In this document: positions 844 through 14,200 of the stretch, piece by piece
How positions within the stretch are numbered: the stretch's first letter is position 1
Layout: each line of letters opens with the position of its first letter
Source of the DNA: a virus
DNA length: 14,223 bases
Virus genome (UHGV): UHGV-0168750
Strand: one strand, 5' to 3'
Position numbers and translations under genes: made by a program
Notes under the pieces: generated by a model
Database searches by the model: none
Told to the model about the DNA's origin: nothing
Seen by the model: the letters and a program-made list of their open reading frames with translations, nothing else

Positions 844-1308
844 ATGAAATGTTTTGAATCTAAAGAAATTGTTGAGTTGTTTAAACAGCGTGAGAAAACC
901 GCTTTCCGTGACCTGTACGATTCTGATTATCGCCCACTGTTTGCGGTATTGTTGAAACTGGATAAAGAACCCGAAATCGCATTAGCAGAGGTACAGCACC
1001 ACCACGTCAGTTTCGTATTAACCGAAAACATGAGCCGGTGGGTAGATGCTATGCTGATCCGTATTGGGCTCTTGGAAACGCCACACCGTTGGGAAGTGGT
1101 TATTCAGAAATCATTATTCCCACGTGAAGACATTTTCAACAAATATCGTCCGAAACAGTATTACAACCACGACGGGTCGCCAAAACGTGCTTTCCTGGCA
1201 CCGCAACACTTCGTAACCTACGTAACATTGCGTTACAAAGACACCGTGGTGCCGTTTGACACCTACCTGGAAATGCGTGAGATAATTTTAGGGAAGAATC
1301 CGTCATGA
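844..1308 (+). CDS. Hypothetical protein (154 aa)
   Basis: AGGAG at 831-835, 8 nt upstream of ATG 844; stop overlaps the next start (ATGA at 1305-1308). Confidence 0.65.
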   Translation: MKCFESKEIVELFKQREKTAFRDLYDSDYRPLFAVLLKLDKEPEIALAEVQHHHVSFVLTENMSRWVDAMLIRIGLLETPHRWEVVIQKSLFPREDIFNKYRPKQYYNHDGSPKRAFLAPQHFVTYVTLRYKDTVVPFDTYLEMREIILGKNPS

Positions 1309-3780: not shown

Positions 3781-3807
3781 TTCGATTTTTAGATGTAAAA
3801 TGACCTT

Positions 3808-3852
3808 CTACCGCCCGATTCTATGGGCGGTAGGTGTTTTTATTTTTTTTTT
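3808..3852 (+). terminator. Rho-independent terminator closing the upstream small-gene block
   Basis: Perfect 9-bp stem CTACCGCCC (3808-3816) / GGGCGGTAG (3825-3833), 8-nt loop, then a T-rich run (3835-3852) including ten consecutive T. Confidence 0.65.
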
Positions 3853-3868: not shown

Positions 3869-4429
3869 GTGGCCACTTACGTACCTGATTTAAGCCTGAC
3901 CTCAGCCGAATTAGTGGTCGCTTTAATCAACCACGATAACGGTTCACAGTTGTCTTTAAGAGAAATTCGTATTAGCAACACTGTGGTAAACCCGTCTCCG
4001 ACCACTTCGCGTCGTAACACACTGTCAGAGATTACAAAAATCAGGAAACCTGACGGTGCTTCTGTGGTTGTTTATTACGATCGCTTAGATGCGGAAGAAG
4101 TATTAGCTTCTGAACCTATTTTGATTTCGTTAGACGGTACTGAAGATAACATTCGTGACATTTTAGATGTTGTAAATGAATTCTGCGGAACGAACTTACA
4201 GCCTGACGATTTGCGCGCTTCAGATATCACATTAGGTAACGATCCCATTGCTGTTAACGTTGCTGACGATTCTCCTGCGTGGATGAATGCGTTTATGGTG
4301 ACGTTATTCGATACAACCGAACGAGCATTAGCCAACGAAGAAGACGCGATCTTCTGTATTGGCGATGTTGCTGTTCTTACATTTGAGGTTCCAGATGGCG
4401 ACTCAGCTGAAGAAAACCCGACTACATGA
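3869..4429 (+). CDS. P1a: conserved small protein (186 aa), paralogue of 13013-13528; likely tail-fibre-associated
   Basis: GTG at 3869 preceded by GGGAGG (3858-3863). N-terminus VATYVPDLSLTS..LINHD matches MGQFVPDLSLTS..LINHD of the paralogue; shared motifs KIRxP, YYxRLxAE, CG(T/S)NLQP(D/E)DL, VLTF. The ORF-track start at 3800 lies inside the terminator hairpin. Confidence 0.6.
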   Translation: MATYVPDLSLTSAELVVALINHDNGSQLSLREIRISNTVVNPSPTTSRRNTLSEITKIRKPDGASVVVYYDRLDAEEVLASEPILISLDGTEDNIRDILDVVNEFCGTNLQPDDLRASDITLGNDPIAVNVADDSPAWMNAFMVTLFDTTERALANEEDAIFCIGDVAVLTFEVPDGDSAEENPTT

Positions 4430-4856
4430 ACTTGACAGTTTTACCGGTGACCCACAGGGCGGGGTATTACTGTTTAGTAAAGAGAATAAAGAATACAAAA
4501 TTAACGCCGAACAGTTACTACCAACGAACACCGTAACTACGGTAAACGGTGCTGACGGCACGGCAACGATTAATCCAAATAACGTTACTGACGTTATACT
4601 GGTATTAAACGATCCTGCGACAACCTTAACTATCTCCCCGTTAACGGAAGCCAAAGCAAACGTTCGGGTTGAGTTTTATTTAACCGTTAAGCAAGGAACA
4701 GGGGCGAATAAGATTACTTGGCCGGATAATGTAAAATGGCCACATAACGCAACTCCTGTTTTGTCCTTTACAGCTAATGCGGAAGATACATTAGCGTTCT
4801 ATACGCTTGATGGTGGGACTACGTGGAAAGGTTCCCTCATCGCCGCAGGTTACTAA
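4395..4856 (+). CDS. P2a: small protein (153 aa) carrying the shared N-terminal module (putative virion-docking domain)
   Basis: ATG at 4395 preceded by GAGGT; residues 5-40 KKTRLHELDSFTGDPQGGVLLFSKENKEYKINAEQL align with the N-termini of the long fibre and of 13528-14148. Overlaps P1a by 35 nt. Confidence 0.6.
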   Translation: MATQLKKTRLHELDSFTGDPQGGVLLFSKENKEYKINAEQLLPTNTVTTVNGADGTATINPNNVTDVILVLNDPATTLTISPLTEAKANVRVEFYLTVKQGTGANKITWPDNVKWPHNATPVLSFTANAEDTLAFYTLDGGTTWKGSLIAAGY

Positions 4857-4858
4857 CG

Positions 4859-7800
4859 ATGAGAAAAACTTTTCAACGACACGCTATTTCTTACGCACTG
4901 TCGTTAGCCTACGGGCACCAAACATTCGTTACTCGAAATACGGGGACAACGAATGATGCTCACACAGACCACTTTATTCAGAATGAAGAAGGGGTCTTAG
5001 CTAATAACCGTCACTTTATTGCAGATACGATGGCGGAGTACCAGCCCAATGGTGATGCAACGACCGAAGGTCAATCGCTACACATCCTTGGGTACTGTCA
5101 TCTGTATATTGCAACTAAAGACCCAAGATGGTTAGATGCAGCAAAACATGCATGGGATGCTTACACTACCTACTTTTACGGTGGGCAAGCTATTCCGACT
5201 ACACCTCAGCGTTTTATTTGTAACTGGTTAGTAAACGGAAAAGAGCCGGTACTCGCGCACTATCCGATACACCCAACAGAACCTACACACGGTGGTTACA
5301 AATGTGTACCCGTCAGGTTCACTAACGGTCAGTGCAAAATACCACACGGTGCACCGTTCTGGGGTGAATATCTAGACACCTTTACGTTTGCTCATCGTGG
5401 TCATCCAACGTGGGGTGCTATTAATGCGGACGTACAGATTATCAAGGAGGATAAAGAAGGGTTAATCGATTGGGATGCTGTGTTAACGCATCTGATTACG
5501 AATCCCGATAAACCTTACGAAACGAAAGCCTGGGTTGACTGGCCAACGTTACTGAACAACGCTACTGGCTACACACCGCTGTGGGGTGGTTCTTCATCAA
5601 AAGGACCTAAGCACGATGTCGACTGGATAGTTGCCTGGACAGGTAACAAGATTCAGGATAGCGAGATTATTGAGTCGGGCTTAGCAGACGCCGATAAAGG
5701 TACCGTACAGTTAAAAGATACTCAATTAAACGGTGTCTATTTAATTAACTACGCGGTAAAACTTCCTGTCGAGCACGGCGGTTATGCTTTTAAACGTAAT
5801 GAACCGTGGCACAACCGACCCGTACATACACCATTCTTAGGCTCTAAGAACCAGTACGGTAATGCAGCAGATGCAGAACTGTGGTTTATCGACGCTTGTT
5901 ATTTGCTGTGGCGAATTACAGGTGAAGATAAATACAAACACGCGTTAGACTGTGCGTTTTACACCGCACACGAGTATACGTATATTGATGCCGCCGACAA
6001 GTTCTTTAGACGTTCTACGGCCGCAGAAACACCGTTTACCGATGGTATCTCTTACGACTTCGATTATCCCGATACCGTGAGCGTCGAATACGGTCGCGAT
6101 ACGAATGGCGATATCACTATCCACGCACCTAAAGCTGTACAACACTTTATGGAGCAGCAAGCAGTACGTTTTAGAATCAATAAAGATTCTAAGCTCAGAG
6201 TGACGTATGGTGGTGTGTGTAAAAACGGTGACCCGGTATATTGTCGTGCGATGGTTGACATTAATCCGGTAAAGGCTGACACGGAAGAAGTGAACTGGTA
6301 CGGTTTAACGTTACCCCGTTCTACTTCGTTAAGCGTTAAGCAATACGATATTGACTTAGGTCAACTTGCACGGATTACTACCCCAGAAGGGGAAGACTAT
6401 TTAATCGCAGATGCACGAGCCTGCTCGGATTACGGCGGTTGTACGTGGGAAGAACGGTTTGAAGACAATATCTACGATGGTCGTGCGGGTACCATTGTCG
6501 AAGCTTTATTTCCGAATGACGATGCGGGCTTTATTATCGGTTTCTGGTTAACCGAAGCGGAGAAGGTTAAGCCGGTTTCTATCGTTTATCGTGCGGACGC
6601 AGACTTTAACCTACGTTTAGTTGATTCTGATAACTGGCGTTGGTGGTGGATGTTACCGAACACGAACAACGAATGGCGACAAGTAACCTTAAATTTAGAG
6701 GACGCGACGTTATCGGGATACCAACCTGACCACACTGACGCTGATCCTGAGCCTTCAGCACCTAACTTCGATAAGGTTGACCAGGTTACTATCCTGCCCG
6801 ATTCTGCTGTAGACCACGCTCACTTTGCTTACTATTGCGTGAATGATGTCCCGCCGGTCTTTAATAAAGATGATGGGTATATCCTCACGTTCCGTATCGC
6901 TTTACGCGGTGGGAGTGAGTTTGACGCAAAAGTCGGCGATTGTACCATCAAAGACTATCGTTTAGACTCACTGGCGTATTGTCCTGGGACGATTCCGTTC
7001 TCGAATATTTATTCAGAAGGGTCTGAACAGCTCGGTGCATGGCACGGTATGCCCTACCCAGGTTATCAATATCCGTTTATGTACGCAATACACAAAGATG
7101 ACCGGTATAAACTGTGGTTAGAGAACCAAATACAGTTTATGCATGACTCGCAAATTGCGTATCAAAAACAGATTGGTGAGTTAGGGCCAGGTTGTGCAGC
7201 CTATATCTGGAATCGTTGGGATAACTACAGTTACGGAAAACCAGATACCTGGACAACATTCCATTGGGGTGACGATCACCCCTGGGCAGGCTACCAACCG
7301 CGCGCATTTCATGCTGCCTGTCGGTGTTGGTACGAGTTAACGTTACGAGGCAAATCAGTTCCTGAGACGTTAACAACCTATATCGAGAATTGGGTGAATT
7401 GGTTAGGTGGGTTTGTGGATAGGTTTAATGGCCACACGCCAAACGAGTTCCCCACAGCACCGAATAAGCCGGTTTGGGTAGAAGACGACTTTACAGCGCA
7501 TATGTGTGCGCTGTGGTTAGCGGGTTGTTGCTGGGCGTTACTTGCCGGTGCGACGAACCCTAACTACGAAAAAGTAGTTAATGCCGCAATTAAAGAGCTC
7601 GGTGACGGGTTTACGATTACGTCAATTCCAAACAAACCCATTAATGGTGCTTGGTCGCCTGCGCCACGAGAGTCTTCGGATAACGGAATGGCTTTTGGTT
7701 TCTATACCGGTGAAGCATTACGTGCTTTAGGACTTTATATCACTTATAAAACTTACGGAGCCAACACAAACATTTATCATGACTTAGCAATCCCAGAACA

Positions 7801-7864
7801 CGAAAGCGCGGTATTAGACGTCACCATCGCCTTAGAAGATGACGCATTAAAACCGGAATTATAA
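4859..7864 (+). CDS. Large Trp/Tyr-rich protein (1001 aa); putative virion-associated carbohydrate-active enzyme (depolymerase-like)
   Basis: ATG at 4859 is 3 nt after the P2a stop, in frame with the ORF-track GTG at 4823. Helical segments such as ADAELWFIDACYLLWRITGEDKYKHALDCAFYTAHEY and AHMCALWLAGCCWALLAGATNPNYEKVVNAAIKELGDG recall alpha/alpha-barrel glycosidases or lyases. Existence of the gene is secure; the function is inferred. Confidence 0.7.
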   Translation: MRKTFQRHAISYALSLAYGHQTFVTRNTGTTNDAHTDHFIQNEEGVLANNRHFIADTMAEYQPNGDATTEGQSLHILGYCHLYIATKDPRWLDAAKHAWDAYTTYFYGGQAIPTTPQRFICNWLVNGKEPVLAHYPIHPTEPTHGGYKCVPVRFTNGQCKIPHGAPFWGEYLDTFTFAHRGHPTWGAINADVQIIKEDKEGLIDWDAVLTHLITNPDKPYETKAWVDWPTLLNNATGYTPLWGGSSSKGPKHDVDWIVAWTGNKIQDSEIIESGLADADKGTVQLKDTQLNGVYLINYAVKLPVEHGGYAFKRNEPWHNRPVHTPFLGSKNQYGNAADAELWFIDACYLLWRITGEDKYKHALDCAFYTAHEYTYIDAADKFFRRSTAAETPFTDGISYDFDYPDTVSVEYGRDTNGDITIHAPKAVQHFMEQQAVRFRINKDSKLRVTYGGVCKNGDPVYCRAMVDINPVKADTEEVNWYGLTLPRSTSLSVKQYDIDLGQLARITTPEGEDYLIADARACSDYGGCTWEERFEDNIYDGRAGTIVEALFPNDDAGFIIGFWLTEAEKVKPVSIVYRADADFNLRLVDSDNWRWWWMLPNTNNEWRQVTLNLEDATLSGYQPDHTDADPEPSAPNFDKVDQVTILPDSAVDHAHFAYYCVNDVPPVFNKDDGYILTFRIALRGGSEFDAKVGDCTIKDYRLDSLAYCPGTIPFSNIYSEGSEQLGAWHGMPYPGYQYPFMYAIHKDDRYKLWLENQIQFMHDSQIAYQKQIGELGPGCAAYIWNRWDNYSYGKPDTWTTFHWGDDHPWAGYQPRAFHAACRCWYELTLRGKSVPETLTTYIENWVNWLGGFVDRFNGHTPNEFPTAPNKPVWVEDDFTAHMCALWLAGCCWALLAGATNPNYEKVVNAAIKELGDGFTITSIPNKPINGAWSPAPRESSDNGMAFGFYTGEALRALGLYITYKTYGANTNIYHDLAIPEHESAVLDVTIALEDDALKPEL

Positions 7865-7883
7865 CCCGCTTATAAAAAAAAAT

Positions 7884-7905
7884 GGGGGAGCATTCTACCT
7901 CCCCC
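7884..7905 (+). promoter_or_regulatory. GC-rich hairpin in the intergenic region upstream of the long tail-fibre gene
   Basis: GGGGGAG (7884-7890) / CTCCCCC (7899-7905) with an 8-nt loop, preceded by TATAAAAAAAAA (7871-7882); only a short T run follows, so a weak terminator or RNA stability/processing element. Confidence 0.3.
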
Positions 7906-7938
7906 GATCTTTTAGCTCCCGATAGAGAATTAAATATC

Positions 7939-10900
7939 ATGGCTAAAGCGGTCAAGAAAATACGTTTGCACGATTTACGTCCTTACGCCGGTGATATCGG
8001 TGAAGGCGTTTTGCTTTTTTCGAAAGACGAAAAAGATTATCAATTACCAGTCCGTGAGATCGTTGCTGATATTGACACCGTAAGGAACGCGGTTGCTGAT
8101 GCACAGTCCGCAGCAGCACAATCACAACAGTCGGCCACAGAAGCAACACAAGCAAAAGATTTAGCGGAAACCGCGAAACAGCAGGTTGACACTACCGCAT
8201 CAACTGTTAGCGAACAAGCACAAACGGTAGCAACAAAAGCGGCTGAGGTCGGCACAAAACATGCCGAAGTTTTAGCAGCAAAAACAGCAGTAGACACTGT
8301 TTTACAGTCGGTGAACGAAAAGGCTCAGGCCGTCTCTGCGAGTGAAAAAGCAGTCACAACAGCCGCCGCCGACGTAACGAAGAAAGCAGAAACTGTTACC
8401 CAGCAAGCTGGTCAAGTTCAACAGTCAGTCACTAGCATCACTGAAATTGCGGCAACTGTTGAAGCCAGTAAAGGCGCTGTGGAAGCTACTGCTGTACAAG
8501 TTACGAAAGACAAAGAATCCGCAGAAGGGGCAGCGACGCGTTCAGAAGCTGCTGCACAACGTGCTGAAGACATCGCTGCACAGGGGTTAATTGACGCCAC
8601 TACAGCTAACAAGGGTATCGTTAAACTTAATAATACCCTAACCAGTGATTCAGTAACGGAAGCGGCTACACCGTCGACAGTGAAGCAACTGAACGACGAG
8701 CTGCAATTAAAAGCCAACAAGCACTCACCGAACTTTACGGGGCAGCCGTCAGCACCAACACCTCCGAAAAATTCTAATGATACCAGTATTTCGACTACTG
8801 CGTGGGTACGTGCAGCTATCGCTGAATTAGTCGGTTCTTCTCCTGAAACGTTAGATACCTTAGCGGAATTAGCCGAAGCGCTGGGTAATGATCCTAACTT
8901 CGCAACAACGATTACTGAGAAACTTGCGCAGAAGCAACCTATCAGTCCGTTACTCACTGCAATCGCTGCGGTTACGACAGCGGCAAATAAACTCCCGTAT
9001 TTCACCGGCACTAATAAAGTCGGGTTAGCCGATTTTACAGAAACCGCCAGAACGTTATTAGCGAAAGGTTCAACAACCGAAATCATTGAGTTTTTAGGAT
9101 TAAAAGCCACCGTAGATAAAGCGAATGGCGCATTACAGAAAAACTCTAATGGTGCTGATATTCCAGATAAAGAAACATTTGCCCGCAATATTGGTCTGTC
9201 TCCTGACACTTATCTGCGTTTCCGTGGTGAAATGCCAACTGATGCGGATATCAACACTTTCGCCCCAGATACCAACTACACGGGTACGTGGTCGAAAGCA
9301 ACCTCGACCAACGCGACAATGGCAAAACACTTTCCAGAAGACGGTGCGGTCGGTTATCTGGAAGTGTATAAAGCGGGTAACTATAGCGGTGCACAACGTT
9401 TTACCTGTCGTAATGGTAACGTCTATAACCGTATGTTGTCAGGTGTGTGGAACGGCACTAATGGCCCGTGGTCACCGTGGAGAATGGTAACTACCGGTGT
9501 ACGTCCACTGGCTACATCAATTGACCTGAACTCCTTAGGCGGTGCCGAACACATGGGTAACTGGCGAAACTCGTCCAGTTCGTTGGCTACCTTTGCTAAC
9601 CACTACCCGGAAGAGGGCGGTGCTGCTCAAGGTGTTTTGGAAGTCATGGAAGGCGGTCTTTACGGACGTTTACAACGTTACACTACTCGACGTGGTACGA
9701 TGTATGTTCGTGGTTTGACGGCGACGTGGGATTCTACTAATCCGCAATGGGAAGATTGGATTCAGGTAGGTTATCAAACCGACGGCGCGTATTACAAAGG
9801 AAACTTCGATAACCTGACTAAACCAGGTCGTTTCAGCGTCACTGGAGAAGCCACGAATGGTCCCCTTACAGGTCCTTCGGGTGAAACATTGTTGGGTGTC
9901 TGTGCAGTTACTGTACGTTTAGACGGTACAGGGATCGAACAAACCTACACCACGCACGGTACAGGTGCGGAGTACAAAGGTCGACGTTTCCACCGTATTC
10001 GTACGGGTAATGTCTGGACGCCGTGGCGCGAGATTTACGACTCGAACAGTTTAGCCATGTTGTTAGGGGTCGGCGGCGAACGTGCGAATGTTGATCCTTT
10101 AGACTGGCAAACCTACGACTTTAAACCGGGTGAATTAATCTGTACGCCACTTAATACCATGAAAAACATTCCTGCGGGAATGGATTGGGGTGTTATCGAC
10201 GGTAATTTAATTAACATCCTGGTTGGGCCATCTGATGGCGCTACGTCAGGTCGAAGTATGTTGGTTTGGCGTAGTACGGTGTCTACCGCCAACTATCGCT
10301 TCTTTGCAGTACGTATCGCCGGTGAGAAGGGTAGCCGTACGATTACGCCACGACAAATGCCTGTGTTGAATGCGGCGCACACTTGGACAGAGAAACAGAC
10401 CTTTGCAAAAGGCTTGTCGGGCGAATTAACCGGTAATGCTTCAACCGCAACCAAATTACAAACTGCCCGGAAAATCGGTGGCGTTGGGTTTGACGGTAGT
10501 GGTGATATTAACCTCCCAGGCGTAAACCAACAGGGTAATCAAAACACCACGGGTAATGCCGGGACAGCCACTAAACTTCAAACCGCCAGAAATATTAACG
10601 GCGTGAGATTCGACGGTTCTGGCGATATTAATATCAACACCCTGGTAGGTCGTGGTCGGGTTACAGCTCTAACCGGCTCAGCGAAAGGTACACCTGGTAT
10701 CCAGATGTACGAAGTTTACAATAACGGTTATCCGACCGCTTATGGTAACTTACTACATTTAGGTGGTTCTACAGCTGTAGGCGAAGGCGAACTGTTAATC
10801 GGTTGGTCAGGTACTAACGGCGCACACGCCCCAGTGTTTATCCGTAGTCGTCGCGACAATGCGGAAGCACCATGGTCGGACTGGGCACAGGTATACACCG

Positions 10901-12441
10901 CCCGCGATAGCATCCCAGGGGTAAACGCGACTGGTAATCAAGATACTACCGGTAACGCGGCTACCGCGACGAAGTTGAAAACCGCTCGCAAAATTGGCGG
11001 TGTGAGCTTTGATGGTACTGGGGATATCAATTTACCGGGGGTTAACCAGCAAGGCAACCAGAATACGACAGGTAATGCAGCAACCGCTACCAAGTTACAA
11101 ACCGCAAGAACCATCAATGGTGTTGCGTTTGACGGCACTAAAAACATCGAAATAACGGCTGAAAGTTTAAATCTTGGTCAAACCGTAGAATTGGCCGGTG
11201 GGTCATTGCAGAAAAACCAGAACGGCGCAGATATTCCTGATAAGGGTCGCTTCCTGAGTAACATTAATGTTTACAGCAAAGGCGAGGTGGATGAGAAAAA
11301 AGGAATGCGGCAGTACGTATTTAACGCGCCGTCTAATGCCGTTGGCGGAAAGTGGTATCCAGTTATTTTCCGGCGTTCCACTGGTAGCACCGGCGAACTG
11401 GCTTCCAGAGTAGTTATTACAACTACATCTGCCGGTGGCGATTACGCAATGAATAACTGCGAATTCAATGGAACGGTAATGGCGGGCGGTTGGACTGATC
11501 GCGGTTCATACGCAGCAGGGTATTTTTCGATATATCAGACTAATGAGCGCGCAATCCATTCCATTGTAACAGGTGTGAAAGATGATGATGTGTGCAGCGT
11601 TTTTTACGTCGAAGGTAGGGCTTTCCCTATTCGAGTTTTTGCCGAAGAAGGGTTATCGGTTAGTGTTCCGACCCAGAATTATACCGTCGGTCAAACAACC
11701 TATAAGTGGGGAGCAACTAATCCTGCGACAGAAAGCACGAACGCACAAACCATTTTGGATTTTAACAATGGACGAGGATTTTATTGTTCCCATTCAATAT
11801 TCGCTATTAATAGTATTTTAAGCGGTAATCTGGGTATCGGTACCGCGAATGCTTTAGGTGGGAATTCCATAGTTTTAGGGGATAATGACACCGGTCTTAA
11901 ACAGAATGGGGACGGTATTCTAGATGTCTATGCCAACGGTCGACATGTATACCGTTTTCAAAACGGCATTGCTATTGCTCTTTATGGTGTTCAGGCTGGT
12001 AACGGTAAAAAACTTTCGTTAACTAGCGCAAACAATTCCACGTTGAATGCGGGTCTTAACATTTGGGGTAACTCTTCGCGTCCAACTGTTGTAGAACTCG
12101 GTGATGACGCAGGCTGGCATTTTTATAGCCAACGAAACACCGACAACTCGATATCGTTCGCCGTTAATGGGCAAATTCAACCGGGAAACTGGAGTAATTT
12201 CGATTCCAGGTACCAAGCACGGTCAGGAGTTGTCCAGGATGTTCGTTTCGGTGGTCAAAGTTATCATAACCCCGGGAGTAATACGACCTCTTGGAATTTC
12301 TCCGCTCCAGGTGGTCATTGTCTTACTGGTATTTCTATATCGGATACTGGCAAAAACTCGGCAGATAACGTTAACGGTGTTTATTATCGCCCGCTACAAA
12401 AATTGGTTAATGGTACTTGGTACAACGTCGCGTCGGTATAG
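7939..12441 (+). CDS. Long tail fibre protein (1500 aa)
   Basis: N-terminal shared module [36 protein letters not shown]; Ala/Gln/Thr-rich coiled-coil-like region; tandem ~75-aa domains; four copies of the tail-fibre repeat TGNAxTATKLxTARxIxGVxFDGSGDI; C-terminal [13 protein letters not shown]-type motif; followed by a Tfa chaperone gene. The ORF-track start at 7882 lies inside the hairpin. Confidence 0.85.
9247..10038 (+). repeat. Three tandem ~75-aa domain repeats inside the fibre (a fourth diverged copy at about 10640-10897)
   Basis: Each unit ends in a Trp-rich motif: [38 protein letters not shown], and in the fourth copy [12 protein letters not shown]. Protein-level periodicity; the nucleotide sequences are diverged. 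Confidence 0.45.
10432..10636 (+). repeat. Pair of tail-fibre sequence repeats (~33 aa each) inside the fibre gene
   Basis: [69 protein letters not shown]; the T-A-T-K-L...FDGSxDI pattern is the classical phage tail-fibre repeat shared by T-even and lambdoid side fibres. Confidence 0.7.
10933..11154 (+). repeat. Second pair of tail-fibre sequence repeats
   Basis: [74 protein letters not shown]; same motif as 10432-10636 with many synonymous differences, so an old duplication. Confidence 0.7.
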
Positions 12442-12443
12442 TT

Positions 12444-12974
12444 ATGTTACATTTAAAAAATATTCGTTCAGGAAACCCTAAAACTCCCGAACAGTGGGAG
12501 CTTACCAAGCGCTTAGGCGTCATATGGCTTTACGATGAAACCGGAAAAAATTGGTATGAGGAGCAAAAGAATTTTCAAGCAGATACTATAAAATTCGGGT
12601 ACGATGCGGACGGCATCATACGTTGGAAGGTTAAAGACATAACGTCGATAAACCCTGACAGTTTAAGCGTTGTTGAAGTTCCCGACGTTATTATAAACCG
12701 TCGTGTCGAATGTAACGGCGAGTGGATGTTTAAAGACGGACGCGCAATCAAGCGGATTTATACGCCGGAGGAGCTGGTTCAACGTGCTGAATCTAAAAAA
12801 GCCGTATTGTTGTCCGAGGCAGAAACAGTCATTAAGCCGCTTGAGCGGGCTGTTAAGCTGAAAATCGCAACAGATCTCGAGCGGTTACGGCTGGAAGCCT
12901 GGGAGGGTTATACTGTAATGATCAGTCGCGTCGATACTAATAATCCCGTCTGGCCTGAAAAACCGCTAATATAA
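12444..12974 (+). CDS. tfa: Tail fibre assembly protein (Tfa-type chaperone, 176 aa)
   Basis: ATG 2 nt after the fibre stop. C-terminus [46 protein letters not shown] matches the conserved Tfa motif (lambda Tfa ends ...[48 protein letters not shown], from memory). The ORF-track start at 12417 overlaps the fibre gene and is rejected. Confidence 0.85.
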
Positions 12975-13012
12975 CCAGCTTGAAACTTCTCTGAAAATTG
13001 GAGGTAAGCTTT

Positions 13013-13528
13013 ATGGGGCAATTCGTGCCGGATTTGTCACTGACCTCACCTAACATGGTTATTTCGTTGATCAATCACGACCTTCAGCTTGATCTGCAAG
13101 AAACCGATGTTGAGTTTAGCGAACTAAAATCTAGCGACACGATGGATCGTGACACCACTGCTGTTGTAAAGATTAGACGTCCTGGTAACAGAACGTTACA
13201 AATCTATTACAACCGTTTAACCGCAGAACGTTGGTTAAACCAGCAACCTATTCTGGTGCAAGTAACTGGCGAGGGGTTTAGCACACACGATTTAATCGAC
13301 GCGATTAACGCAGCCTGTGGCAGTAACCTGCAACCCGAAGATCTTCAGGACGATTCATTTACAGTAGGAAAAGACGCTGTAACGTTACAGGTATCACCTA
13401 ACTCCCTAAGTTATAAAGGCCAATTCTCTGTTTTGGTTTTTGGTAACGGCGAAGAAGCCGCGGTAACAAAAGACGACAACTTAATTGTTACCGCAGATAA
13501 TCGTGTCTTAACCTTCGGAGGTCAATAA
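13013..13528 (+). CDS. P1b: conserved small protein (171 aa), paralogue of 3869-4429
   Basis: ATG at 13013 preceded by TGGAGG; N-terminus MGQFVPDLSLTS..LINHD and internal motifs shared with P1a; stop TAA overlaps the next ATG (TAATG at 13526-13530). Confidence 0.65.
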   Translation: MGQFVPDLSLTSPNMVISLINHDLQLDLQETDVEFSELKSSDTMDRDTTAVVKIRRPGNRTLQIYYNRLTAERWLNQQPILVQVTGEGFSTHDLIDAINAACGSNLQPEDLQDDSFTVGKDAVTLQVSPNSLSYKGQFSVLVFGNGEEAAVTKDDNLIVTADNRVLTFGGQ

Positions 13529-14148
13529 TGGCTGAATTGGTAGGAAAGGTACGTGTTCACGAACTGCCGTCGCTTTCAGAAGACATCACGGGTGTAGTAG
13601 TCTTAGCGTCTAAGGAACAAACCGAATATCAACTCCCGATTGAGAATTTAGGGGGTGGCGAGGTTACAGTGAGTCCGTCAGCGAATAACATCCTTAAGTC
13701 TAACAGCGATGGACTGTTTGTTGACGGCGCACATCCTATTATACCGAAAATGGATGCAAAAACCTTATCGGGAAATATGGTGGTAGAAAAAACGCTGACA
13801 GGTGGCGCGGTAATCTGCAAAACAATGGTTGACGTTAATAATAGGCTGGGGATTTCGCAATTATCTGGAGTGTCAATTTATAGCCAGTGCCTGCTGGAAA
13901 ATAAATTGGTTTACCTGGCAGAAGACGGCAGTATTATTGATGCGTACTTCTACATCAGTAATACAAAAACCACTGCCAGTACAATAACGCACACTATTCG
14001 GGTTGTGTTAGCGAAGATACCTTCTAAAGTTATTGATATCACCGATTTGTCTGAAACTGAGGTGCAATACCAGGATGGTAATCTACCTGTTAAGATCGTT
14101 ATTAAACATCTTGTGGGTACAACACTTTCTCAGAATGGGATGAAATAG
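13528..14148 (+). CDS. P2b: protein (206 aa) carrying the shared N-terminal module; putative second short fibre or receptor-binding protein
   Basis: Residues 6-41 GKVRVHELPSLSEDITGVVVLASKEQTEYQLPIENL align with the N-termini of P2a and the long fibre; the C-terminal ~165 aa are unrelated to both. Confidence 0.65.
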   Translation: MAELVGKVRVHELPSLSEDITGVVVLASKEQTEYQLPIENLGGGEVTVSPSANNILKSNSDGLFVDGAHPIIPKMDAKTLSGNMVVEKTLTGGAVICKTMVDVNNRLGISQLSGVSIYSQCLLENKLVYLAEDGSIIDAYFYISNTKTTASTITHTIRVVLAKIPSKVIDITDLSETEVQYQDGNLPVKIVIKHLVGTTLSQNGMK

Positions 14149-14152
14149 TTTT

Positions 14153-14200
14153 AGGTAGTAGGGGCTAAGCCCCTACTACCTTTTTCTTTTTTTATTTTTT
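14153..14200 (+). terminator. Strong rho-independent terminator at the end of the fibre operon
   Basis: Perfect 13-bp stem AGGTAGTAGGGGC (14153-14165) / GCCCCTACTACCT (14169-14181) with a 3-nt loop, then TTTTTCTTTTTTTATTTTTT; begins 5 nt after the P2b stop. Confidence 0.8.

What the first reader, a model, noticed from the sequence alone, without database searches (positions are those of the whole stretch)
4395..13653. One ~35-aa N-terminal module shared by three otherwise different proteins
The N-termini of P2a (4395-), the long fibre (7939-) and P2b (13528-) align: KKTRLHELDSFTGDPQGGVLLFSKENKEYKINAEQL / [36 protein letters not shown] / GKVRVHELPSLSEDITGVVVLASKEQTEYQLPIENL. Downstream of it the three proteins are unrelated (153 aa, 1500 aa, 206 aa). 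This is the signature of a common docking domain, implying up to three different distal appendages competing for or co-occupying one attachment site. The nucleotide sequences of the three modules are diverged, so this is maintained by selection rather than recent duplication.
Basis: partly seen in the sequence, partly recalled or inferred. Interest (0 to 1): 0.8.

Follow-up and report, generated by a model that had tools for sequence, protein, structure and literature searches.

The report
Shared N-terminal anchor on jumbo-phage fibres
Three different tail proteins of a giant (SPN3US-like) phage start with the same 41-residue segment, which is most likely the handle that fastens interchangeable host-recognition proteins to the virus particle; this is a familiar design in phages, but it had not been described for this group.

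Summary
The first 41-44 residues of P2a (4395-), the long fibre (7939-) and P2b (13528-) align without gaps. Identity is 41-46% and pairwise BLASTP E is 3e-10 to 8e-7. Nothing downstream is similar. The DNA is saturated at synonymous sites.

A profile search of 1.84 billion proteins finds the module in only about 19 clusters. It always starts at residue 1 and precedes at least seven unrelated bodies: small fibres, 1300-1550-aa fibres, a NanS-p-like esterase, a beta-propeller protein and others.

The window is a complete metagenomic contig of an SPN3US/Asesino-like chimallivirus. Cultured relatives carry one copy of the module; this lineage carries 2-4.

Each short DUF7941 gene (P1a, P1b) is followed directly by a module gene. 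The same cassette occurs three times in Klebsiella phage Eowyn. In Goslar, the homologue of the window's 1001-aa tail protein is fused to a DUF7941-like N-terminus. In a T7-like podovirus, the T7 fibre docking domain sits where the module sits.

Best reading: the module is a lineage-specific virion anchor for modular receptor-binding proteins. Its partner is probably a short DUF7941 protein. That partner is inferred, not shown. This is a new member of a known kind, of moderate interest.

The parts
3807..3834 (+). Terminator-like hairpin (11 bp stem) that closes the upstream unit. The ATG at 3800 lies just upstream of it and the ORF from that ATG reads through it.
   Evidence: sequence
3869..4429 (+). 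P1a: a short DUF7941 protein (186 aa) made of the N-terminal globular domain plus a linker-like tail, without the C-terminal domain. It starts at GTG 3869, preceded by the Shine-Dalgarno sequence GGGAGG. It overlaps the start of P2a by 35 nt.
   Evidence: Pfam PF25613, E 6e-19, profile positions 3-153 of 276. Start. Orthologue of SPN3US gp122.
4395..4517 (+). Module copy 1: residues 1-41 of P2a.
4395..4856 (+). P2a (153 aa): the module plus a ~110-aa beta-sandwich C-domain that is common at the C-terminus of phage fibres. Orthologue of SPN3US gp123.
   Evidence: phrog_9017, E 2e-40. tblastn. AF2 C-domain pLDDT 85-94. BFVD matches at rmsd 1.3-2.7 A over ~110 residues.
4859..7864 (+). 1001-aa tail protein (glycosidase-like). 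Orthologue of SPN3US gp124 and Asesino gp141, and homologous to residues 277-1188 of Goslar gp92. It carries no module.
7883..7906 (+). Terminator-like hairpin between the tail protein gene and the long fibre gene. The spurious ATG at 7882 lies immediately before its stem.
7939..8061 (+). Module copy 2: residues 1-41 of the long fibre. It is followed directly by an Ala/Gln-rich coiled-coil-like stretch.
7939..12441 (+). Long tail fibre (1500 aa). The module plus the coiled-coil-like stretch (residues 1-216) replaces the P2-gpH-type N-domain seen in Goslar gp90. The distal part is related to P2, P1 and Mu fibres.
   Evidence: Pfam Phage_fiber_2 only. DNA 79% identical to Peduovirus fibres at window 11202-11793. 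BLASTP to Goslar gp90. Goslar gp90 has PF12571.
12444..12974 (+). Tail fibre assembly protein (Tfa) for the long fibre.
   Evidence: Caudo_TAP, E 2e-29; phrog_136
12998..13528 (+). P1b: the second short DUF7941 protein. Gene callers start it at ATG 13013, giving 171 aa. It is a paralogue of P1a. Its stop overlaps the ATG of P2b by 1 nt, and its last Gly codons (GGAGG) form the Shine-Dalgarno sequence of P2b.
   Evidence: Pfam E 5e-17. 37% identity to P1a, E 4e-39. Junction. Gene call.
13528..13650 (+). Module copy 3: residues 1-41 of P2b.
13528..14148 (+). P2b (206 aa): the module plus a C-terminal domain of unknown function. The only family match is to the C-terminal end of phrog_33169.
14153..14181 (+). 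Strong terminator-like hairpin (13 bp stem followed by a T-run) that closes the cassette.

Best explanation
The 41-44-residue N-terminal module is a virion-attachment (anchor) segment that this lineage of chimalliviruses places in front of interchangeable receptor-binding proteins. The lineage comprises SPN3US/Asesino-like phages and, in diverged form, Eowynvirus.

Shown:
- The module is a distinct, gapless sequence family under protein-level selection.
- It is always at residue 1 and sits on unrelated bodies.
- The bodies are acquired horizontally, with the junction right after the module.
- One bearer (SPN3US gp123) is a non-head virion protein.

Inferred:
- The module consists of a flexible basic arm (residues 1-15, KKxRLHEL) plus a beta-hairpin (VLLFSK / KEYKLP). 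It becomes ordered only on binding a partner.
- The most likely partner is the short DUF7941 protein encoded immediately upstream and translationally coupled to it (P1a for P2a and probably the long fibre; P1b for P2b).
- P1 in turn joins the DUF7941 assembly that the Goslar and phiKZ work places at the periphery of the baseplate.
- P2a itself is an adaptor that carries the 1001-aa glycosidase-like protein.

On this reading a virion of this phage displays three recognition devices (tail protein via P2a, long fibre, P2b) on paralogous sockets rather than on one shared site.

My probabilities: anchor function about 0.75; DUF7941 as the partner about 0.45.
For: 1. Family and position. Pairwise E values are 3e-10 to 8e-7. 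The profile search of 1.84e9 proteins returns about 19 clusters with the module at residues 1-44 of proteins of 133 to 1494 aa with unrelated bodies. There is no Pfam family.

2. Grafting. The body of P0015 is 50-52% identical to the Stx-phage NanS-p esterase from residue ~45. The distal part of the fibre is related to P2, P1 and Mu fibres. Residues 248-517 of the fibre align to Goslar gp90 313-582, but gp90 starts with PF12571 instead of the module.

3. Positional analogy. phiR8-01 g043 is the T7 tail-fibre N-domain plus a P2a-type C-domain, followed by a homologue of the 1001-aa protein.

4. Virion presence. SPN3US gp123 and gp124 are in purified virions and are not flagged as head proteins (PMC5694885 Table S1).

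5. Link to DUF7941.
- Every short DUF7941 gene seen is followed at once by a module gene. This holds in 8 isolates and about 10 metagenomic genomes, with a 1-35 nt overlap or a gap of a few nt (3 nt in L017/L018/L019/L021, 6 and 12 nt in Eowyn).
- The same holds in Eowyn, with 3 short DUF7941 genes and 3 module-bearing proteins.
- Natural deletion variants lose P2a and the tail protein but keep P1a intact in front of the long fibre.
- The P1 tail and the module are inherited together and separately from the P1 globular domain. NTD/tail/module identities are 75/37/48, 81/33/48 and 50/66/60%.
- Goslar gp92 is a DUF7941-like N-terminus (hhalign E 7e-5) fused to the homologue of the 1001-aa protein (39% identity over 969 aa). 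This is a Rosetta-stone fusion.

6. DUF7941 biology. These proteins form head-to-tail filaments, and phiKZ gp127 is seen at the outer baseplate (preprint 10.64898/2026.04.21.720040).

7. AF2. Module residues 16-45 are predicted as a beta-hairpin at pLDDT 65-69, residues 1-15 score below 50, and the P2a C-domain scores 85-94.
Against: - No physical interaction has been shown or confidently predicted. The AF2 fusion models gave no usable information on a P1-module contact: the P1 part scored pLDDT 27-57 and no contacts are returned.
- SPN3US gp122, the P1a orthologue, was not detected in purified virions. This is weak evidence, because gp123 itself had only 7 spectra.
- The same study classed the DUF7941 paralogues as head proteins because they were present in a tailless mutant. 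That conflicts with a baseplate location.
- There are more module genes than short DUF7941 genes in several genomes: 3:2 in the window, and L020, whose P1a region lies off the contig, shows three module genes and one P1. In L020 a class-B2 module follows a P1b whose tail is of the other type. Pairing is therefore not strictly one-to-one.
- Adjacency and co-inheritance of the P1 tail and the module could reflect physical linkage only.
- Pfam itself does not call DUF7941 in Goslar gp92.
- The module shows no sequence similarity to any part of DUF7941.
Confidence: 0.6

Rival explanations
1. The module is an anchor, but it plugs directly into a conserved baseplate or peripheral-baseplate protein encoded elsewhere in the genome. 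The short DUF7941 proteins are then either assembly chaperones for these fibres or independent fibre components that merely share the locus.
For: - SPN3US gp122 (P1a orthologue) was not detected in virions, while gp123 and gp124 were.
- Module genes outnumber short DUF7941 genes.
- Goslar pairs a short DUF7941 (gp91) with a long fibre that has an ordinary gpH-type N-domain and no module. P1-like genes therefore do not need a module next to them.
- No sequence relation exists between the module and DUF7941.
Against: - The P1-then-module adjacency is strict across two chimallivirus genera, despite 25-45% sequence identity and heavy mosaicism.
- P1a is retained when P2a is deleted.
- The P1 tail is co-inherited with the module.
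- Goslar gp92 fuses a DUF7941-like domain to the cargo of P2a.
Confidence: 0.25
2. The module is not a docking element. It is an N-terminal oligomerisation or folding nucleus, or a recognition tag for a chaperone or for sorting inside the infected cell, shared by proteins that must be trimerised or delivered to the assembly site.
For: - In the long fibre it directly precedes a coiled-coil-like stretch.
- AF2 predicts only a small hairpin of moderate confidence.
- Chimalliviruses do sort proteins between compartments (background).
Against: - It occurs on bodies that have their own oligomerisation and chaperone systems: Tfa, Gp38_N, S74 and DUF4376 genes sit next to them.
- It takes the place of bona fide docking domains: the T7 fibre N-domain in phiR8-01 and PF12571 in Goslar gp90.
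- Six of the invariant positions are polar or charged (K7, R9, H11, D19, K29, Y34). This is more typical of an interface than of a core.
Confidence: 0.1
3. The similarity is a chance or compositional match, a shared translation-initiation or RNA element, or a decaying relic of a recent duplication with no function.
For: The segment is short (41 aa). Each pairwise comparison taken alone is only moderately strong.
Against: - There are three mutually consistent gapless alignments, all starting at residue 1.
- There are 23 distinct homologues with the same invariant positions.
- Profile hits reach E 1e-22 in a library of 1.84e9 proteins.
- The DNA is saturated at synonymous sites while the protein is conserved. 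This excludes both an RNA-level element and a recent duplication.
Confidence: 0.03

Closest known systems
N-terminal domain of T7-type tail fibres and tailspikes (Pfam PF03906, Phage_T7_tail)
   Same: It is strictly N-terminal, fastens fibres or spikes with exchangeable distal parts to the tail, and marks the boundary of horizontal exchange. In Yersinia phage phiR8-01 it sits in front of the same P2a-type C-domain, followed by the same large tail protein.
   Different: It is about 150 aa against 41-44 aa. There is no sequence similarity (no Pfam hit for the module). Its partner is the adaptor/nozzle junction of podoviruses (established knowledge). No separate partner gene is encoded next to each fibre.
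Anchor and branching domains of multi-tailspike phages: CBA120 TSP1-4 N-terminal domains, K1-5/SP6 adaptor, G7C gp66-gp63.1, and the conserved N-termini of Klebsiella phage depolymerases (from my knowledge of the literature, not tested here)
   Same: Several receptor-binding proteins in one virion share or combine N-terminal attachment segments while their enzymatic or binding bodies differ. The weak best Foldseek hits of the P2a model are to the N-terminal parts of such spikes (Solidus gp83, CBA120 TSP4 residues 1-335; none reaches E 1e-3).
   Different: Those systems use larger folded domains that bind one another in a branched tree. Here a 41-aa segment recurs on every protein. The deletion variants show that the site is not on P2a or on the tail protein.
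DUF7941 proteins of chimalliviruses, including DUF7941-receptor-binding fusions (Goslar gp86, gp92, gp161; preprint 10.64898/2026.04.21.720040)
   Same: They occur in the same virus family and the same locus type. Recognition domains are tied to the DUF7941 assembly. Goslar gp92 carries the homologue of the window's 1001-aa protein behind a DUF7941-like N-terminus.
   Different: In Goslar the link is covalent. In the window it is split into a short DUF7941 protein plus a module-bearing protein. The module has no detectable similarity to any part of DUF7941. No module was found in the Goslar, phiKZ or RAY regions scanned.
N-terminal baseplate-binding domain of P2 gpH / P1 gpS type fibres (Pfam PF12571, Phage_tail_fib)
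   Same: It is the usual proximal end of fibres whose shaft and tip are homologous to the window's long fibre. It is present on Goslar gp90.
   Different: It is absent from the window's fibre. There the module plus a coiled-coil-like stretch takes its place.

Membership tests
DUF7941 (PF25613), for P1a and P1b | Score above Pfam's gathering threshold (27 bits) | tested here: met
   69.0 and 62.6 bits, E 6e-19 and 5e-17
DUF7941 (PF25613), for P1a and P1b | Full architecture: N-terminal globular domain, linker and C-terminal globular domain | tested here: not met
   Only profile positions 3-153 of 276 are matched. The proteins end after a ~30-aa tail. This is the short form, like Goslar gp23 and gp91.
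DUF7941 (PF25613), for P1a and P1b | Head-to-tail oligomerisation and location at the peripheral baseplate | not testable with these tools
   Known only from the Goslar preprint. The SPN3US mass-spectrometry study assigns the paralogues to the head.
DUF7941, for the module itself | Sequence similarity of the module to the DUF7941 N-domain, linker or C-domain | tested here: not met
Phage_T7_tail (PF03906) | Pfam match at the N-terminus of the module-bearing proteins | tested here: not met
   No hit at E up to 10. phiR8-01 g043 does match, E 6e-9.
Phage_tail_fib (PF12571, P2 gpH-type N-domain), for the long fibre | Pfam match at the N-terminus | tested here: not met
   Only Phage_fiber_2 is found, at residues 221-261. 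Goslar gp90 matches PF12571 at E 3e-41.
Functional class: N-terminal anchor of modular receptor-binding proteins | Strictly N-terminal and shared by proteins with unrelated bodies in one genome | tested here: met
Functional class: N-terminal anchor of modular receptor-binding proteins | Bodies exchanged horizontally, with the junction at the end of the anchor | tested here: met
   NanS-p-like body from residue ~45. Fibre bodies with Tfa, S74 or Gp38_N ends. Alignment to gp90.
Functional class: N-terminal anchor of modular receptor-binding proteins | The bearers are virion components | tested here: inconclusive
   Only the SPN3US orthologue of P2a (gp123) and gp124 are documented. There are no data for the long fibre or P2b of this uncultured phage.
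Functional class: N-terminal anchor of modular receptor-binding proteins | Physical binding of the segment to a virion component | not testable with these tools
   Only single-chain AF2 without contact output is available.
Caudo_TAP (PF02413), for ORF 12444-12974 | Score above the gathering threshold and position after a fibre gene | tested here: met
   102.7 bits against a cut-off of 22.1

The most novel reading that the evidence does not exclude
The module and the short DUF7941 protein form a two-part plug-and-socket system that is specific to a branch of the nucleus-forming jumbo phages. Each cassette encodes its own socket (the DUF7941 N-domain plus a tail that co-evolves with the plug) and a plug-bearing recognition protein. 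The socket then polymerises into the DUF7941 filament network. One virion can thereby mount one to four different fibres, spikes or esterases, at copy numbers set by the network rather than by six-fold baseplate symmetry. This would be the first molecular account of how chimalliviruses attach their host-recognition proteins.
Probability: 0.4. Interest if true: 0.65.

Novelty: new member of a known kind. Interest (0 to 1): 0.45.

Why it matters
How nucleus-forming jumbo phages (Chimalliviridae) recognise hosts is largely open. The peripheral baseplate is unresolved in both the phiKZ and the Goslar structures, and the role of the abundant DUF7941 proteins has only just been proposed.

A short, portable N-terminal handle gives three things:
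1. A sequence signature for finding the receptor-binding proteins of these phages in genomes and metagenomes. None of the module-bearing proteins is recognisable from the module today, because it has no Pfam family.
2. A concrete, testable pairing: P1a with P2a or the fibre, and P1b with P2b.
3. A practical graft point for retargeting SPN3US-like therapeutic phages of Salmonella, E. coli, Shigella and Klebsiella.

The principle itself, a conserved N-terminal anchor with a variable body, is well known. A specialist would not be surprised by it.

Tried and rejected
1. Module as a homologue of the DUF7941 linker or C-domain. A MAFFT alignment placed the paralogues' linkers under the module. hhalign and hmmsearch show no similarity. 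The placement was an artefact of global alignment, and the idea is rejected at sequence level.

2. AF2 of a P1b-P2b fusion without an alignment. Mean pLDDT was 31.7, which is useless.

3. AF2 of P1+module fusions with 29 rows that included other loci.

4. AF2 of the P1a-P2a fusion with the 19 permitted rows. Only the P2a part was confident and no contact output is given, so it cannot test docking.

5. Word-indexed protein searches. With the module the search returned only short fragments. With P1a and with the P2b C-domain it returned only close relatives, so it gave no new architectures.

7. Pfam scan of the isolated modules gave no family.

8. Search for the module in phiKZ (118-168 kb), Goslar (60-109 kb) and RAY (6-26 kb) found none.

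9. tblastn of the 710-aa module-bearing protein (P0016) against phages gave no match.

10. Literature search for a description of the module, or of SPN3US gp123 or gp124 function, found none.
Full report
**What the window is.** The 14,223-base window is a complete metagenomic contig (ENA ERZ1026973, NODE_339). All real genes are on the + strand. Its closest cultured relatives are the jumbo phages Erwinia phage Asesino and Salmonella phage SPN3US: the 1001-aa protein is 74-80% identical to theirs. These phages belong to the nucleus-forming Chimalliviridae. At DNA level nothing in the phage collection matches except parts of the long fibre gene, which resemble the fibres of P2-, P1- and Mu-like temperate phages.

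The gene order from 3800 onward is as follows:
- hairpin 3807-3834
- P1a, 3869-4429
- P2a, 4395-4856
- a 1001-aa glycosidase-like 'tail protein', 4859-7864
- hairpin 7883-7906
- long fibre, 7939-12441
- fibre assembly protein, 12444-12974
- P1b, 12998-13528
- P2b, 13528-14148
- hairpin 14153-14181

**Check of the observation.** The first 41-44 residues of P2a, the long fibre and P2b align without a gap. BLASTP gives 45%, 46% and 41% identity, with E 3e-10, 1e-8 and 8e-7, and finds no other significant segment between any pair. A module HMM hits exactly these three places in the six-frame translation of the window. The module DNA is 46-53% identical, and third codon positions are at 27-32%. Most identical residues use different codons.

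**How wide the family is.** A profile of the module was searched against 1.84 billion representative proteins. It returned 25 proteins at E<=1e-3. In about 19 of them the module occupies residues 1-44. Two others are scrambled sequences, and six are weak multi-segment hits in long repetitive proteins.

The bearers are:
- P2a-type proteins of 153-156 aa
- P2b-type proteins of 205-207 aa
- fibres of 1306-1555 aa with Tfa-, S74- or Gp38_N-type ends
- a 273-aa protein
- a 706-aa SASA esterase plus DUF6645, whose body is 50-52% identical to the NanS-p esterases of Stx prophages from residue ~45
- 709/710-aa Ig plus beta-propeller-like proteins
- a 188-aa protein
- a 133-aa protein

There are 23 distinct module sequences. 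They align without gaps and share the pattern MAxxV[KG]KxR[LVI]HEL...GD...V.L.SK[DE].KEY. Pfam has no family for the module.

**Copy number.** Deposited SPN3US-like phages carry one copy, on the P2a orthologue. They also lack the block from the long fibre to P2b. Metagenomic genomes of 220-227 kb of the window's lineage carry two to four copies, all in this one cluster.

**What the neighbours say.** P1a and P1b are paralogues (37% identity, E 4e-39). Both match the N-terminal half of Pfam DUF7941 above threshold. A 2026 preprint on phage Goslar reports several things about DUF7941 proteins:
- they are specific to chimalliviruses;
- they are very abundant in virions;
- they form head-to-tail filaments, in which the linker of one protomer docks on the N-domain of the next;
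- in phiKZ they are anchored at the outer baseplate;
- some are fused to carbohydrate-binding or hydrolase domains.

In every genome examined, each short DUF7941 gene is followed at once by a module gene. The overlap is 1-35 nt or the gap a few nt (3 nt in L017/L018/L019/L021; 6 and 12 nt in Eowyn). In the window, the ribosome-binding sites of P2a and P2b lie inside the last codons of the P1 gene before them.

Natural variants found in several samples and in three near-complete genomes have deleted P2a together with the 1001-aa protein. They leave a small remnant and keep P1a intact directly before the long fibre. The attachment site of the other module-bearing proteins therefore cannot be on P2a or on the tail protein, and P1a has a role beyond P2a.

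Comparisons of P1 proteins show that the C-terminal tail travels with the downstream module rather than with the globular domain. NTD/tail/module identities are 75/37/48% and 81/33/48% in two cases and 50/66/60% in a third. The modules fall into three classes that follow locus position: P2a, fibre and 273-aa; P2b; esterase and propeller types.

**Independent replicates.** Klebsiella phage Eowyn belongs to a different genus. It has three short DUF7941 genes (Pfam E 1e-20 to 2e-24) interleaved with a tail spike, a 591-aa protein and a tail fibre. Residues 1-41 of those three proteins are the three best matches of the window-derived module HMM among 182 six-frame segments. Each match is end-to-end from residue 1, with E 7e-5, 4e-3 and 1.3.

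In Goslar, gp92 carries the homologue of the window's 1001-aa protein (39% identity over 969 residues) behind an N-terminus that the preprint calls DUF7941. I could align that N-terminus weakly to a DUF7941 N-domain profile (hhalign E 7e-5), although Pfam itself does not call it. This is a Rosetta-stone fusion. What is one chain in Goslar is P1a, P2a and the tail protein in the window.

In the autographivirid podovirus phiR8-01, the T7 tail-fibre N-terminal docking domain stands in front of the same P2a-type C-domain, followed by the same large protein. In Goslar gp90, a fibre homologous to the window's fibre starts with the P2 gpH-type N-domain. In the window, the module plus a coiled-coil-like stretch takes that place. 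Twice, then, the module occupies the slot of a known docking domain.

**Structure prediction.** A fusion of P1b and P2b without an alignment was uninformative. A fusion of P1a and P2a with the 19 rows the tool permitted gave a poor P1 part, a confident P2a C-domain (pLDDT 85-94), a beta-hairpin of moderate confidence in module residues ~24-37 (VLLFSK / KEYKIN, pLDDT 65-69), and a disordered arm for residues 1-15. The C-domain matches the C-terminal ~110 residues of many predicted phage fibre proteins at 1.3-2.7 A rmsd. No solved structure matches significantly; the weak best hits are the N-terminal parts of tailspikes. These runs cannot test a P1-module contact.

**Experimental data from the literature.** In purified SPN3US virions, gp124 (the tail protein) and gp123 (the P2a orthologue) were detected and not assigned to the head. 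gp122 (the P1a orthologue) was not detected (PMC5694885). gp123 gave only 7 spectra, so a sub-stoichiometric gp122 could have been missed. The same paper classes the 20 DUF7941 paralogues as head proteins because they appear in a tailless mutant. That is at odds with the baseplate model of the Goslar preprint and is a real uncertainty for any model that routes attachment through DUF7941.

**Interpretation.** The module is best explained as a lineage-specific N-terminal anchor for interchangeable receptor-binding proteins (about 0.75).
- The partner is most likely the adjacent short DUF7941 protein (about 0.45). The main rival is a direct baseplate socket, with P1 acting as a chaperone or bystander (about 0.25).
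- P2a is most likely an adaptor for the 1001-aa protein rather than a distal appendage.
- The two P1 paralogues and the three module classes argue for cognate sockets rather than competition for a single site, but this is inference.

Conserved N-terminal anchors on variable receptor-binding proteins are a well-known principle in T7-like phages, K1-5/SP6, the Ackermannviridae and Klebsiella phages. This is therefore a new member of a known kind. Its interest lies in giving a handle on the unresolved host-recognition apparatus of chimalliviruses.

Noticed in passing
L007 4791-5004 (also L008-L010, L014 9669-9863, L021 4857-5021); equivalent to window 4395-7864: Natural deletion variants of this phage lineage have lost P2a and the 1001-aa tail protein in one event. 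What remains is a short remnant that joins the first ~20 codons of P2a to the last ~30 codons of the tail protein. P1a and the long fibre stay intact in the near-complete genomes.
   Followed up: partly
L007 5081-5305, L008 809-1033, L009, L010: In four contigs from two studies the long fibre ORF stops after 74 codons because one base is missing at an A-run (GCAAAAATTTAG against GCAAAAGATTTAG in the window). The downstream sequence continues in another frame. This could be a real frameshifted lineage, a slippery site or a recurrent assembly error.
   Followed up: no
window 3807-3834, 7883-7906, 14153-14181: Three G+C-rich hairpins followed by T-runs bracket the two gene blocks: P1a-P2a-tail protein, and fibre-Tfa-P1b-P2b. 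The second block is absent from SPN3US and Asesino and looks like an inserted cassette. The mechanically listed ORFs from ATG 3800 and ATG 7882 read through two of these hairpins.
   Followed up: partly
window 11071-11793 (within the long fibre gene): This is the only stretch with nucleotide-level similarity to deposited phages. It is 79% identical to the fibre genes of P2-like Peduovirus P22H4 and 9W, and 80-82% identical to the S gene of P1, P7 and JL22 over 167 nt. This indicates exchange of fibre segments between a lytic jumbo phage and temperate enterobacterial phages.
   Followed up: no
window 10420-11160 (fibre residues ~830-1075): The fibre contains several tandem copies of a ~40-70-residue unit ([19 protein letters not shown].I.GV.FDG..DI.LPGVNQ). 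Goslar gp90 has the same repeats, with up to 78% identity per unit.
   Followed up: no
proteins P0029, P0031, P0032, P0034, P0041, P0045, P0046, P0048 (relatives of P1a and P2b): Near-identical copies of these genes are deposited under Salmonella, Shigella and E. coli isolate assemblies, some on contigs of 150-225 kb, and one cluster has 339 member sequences. This lytic-type jumbo phage therefore travels with bacterial isolates often, which suggests a carrier state, pseudolysogeny or contamination.
   Followed up: no
L017 10001-12121 (P0015): A relative carries, behind the module, a homologue of NanS-p, the 9-O-acetyl-sialic-acid esterase of Stx prophages, plus DUF6645. A jumbo phage appears to have recruited a prophage-encoded mucin or sialic-acid esterase as a virion appendage.
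   Followed up: partly
L001 15394-24874 and L002 18048-25001: SPN3US and Asesino carry tandem arrays of 7-10 full-length DUF7941 paralogues about 9 kb downstream of the P1-P2a-tail protein trio. The SPN3US proteomics paper calls them head proteins, while the Goslar preprint calls the family baseplate fibres. The two assignments conflict.
   Followed up: partly
window 844-1308 and 1305-1787: These two adjacent ORFs (154 and 160 aa) both match phrog_7413, with E 1e-3 and 7e-26. They are probably tandem paralogues of unknown function.
   Followed up: no
L025 1201-1686 (Escherichia phage EC001) and L026/L027 (STsAS, pEa_SNUABM_29): Some cultured Seoulvirus members have strongly diverged modules: KKQTFESL...GMFLFIKDGKAYQYP in EC001, and a two-residue insertion with the loss of VLLFSK in STsAS. 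In EC001 the tail of the upstream DUF7941 protein is diverged as well.
   Followed up: partly
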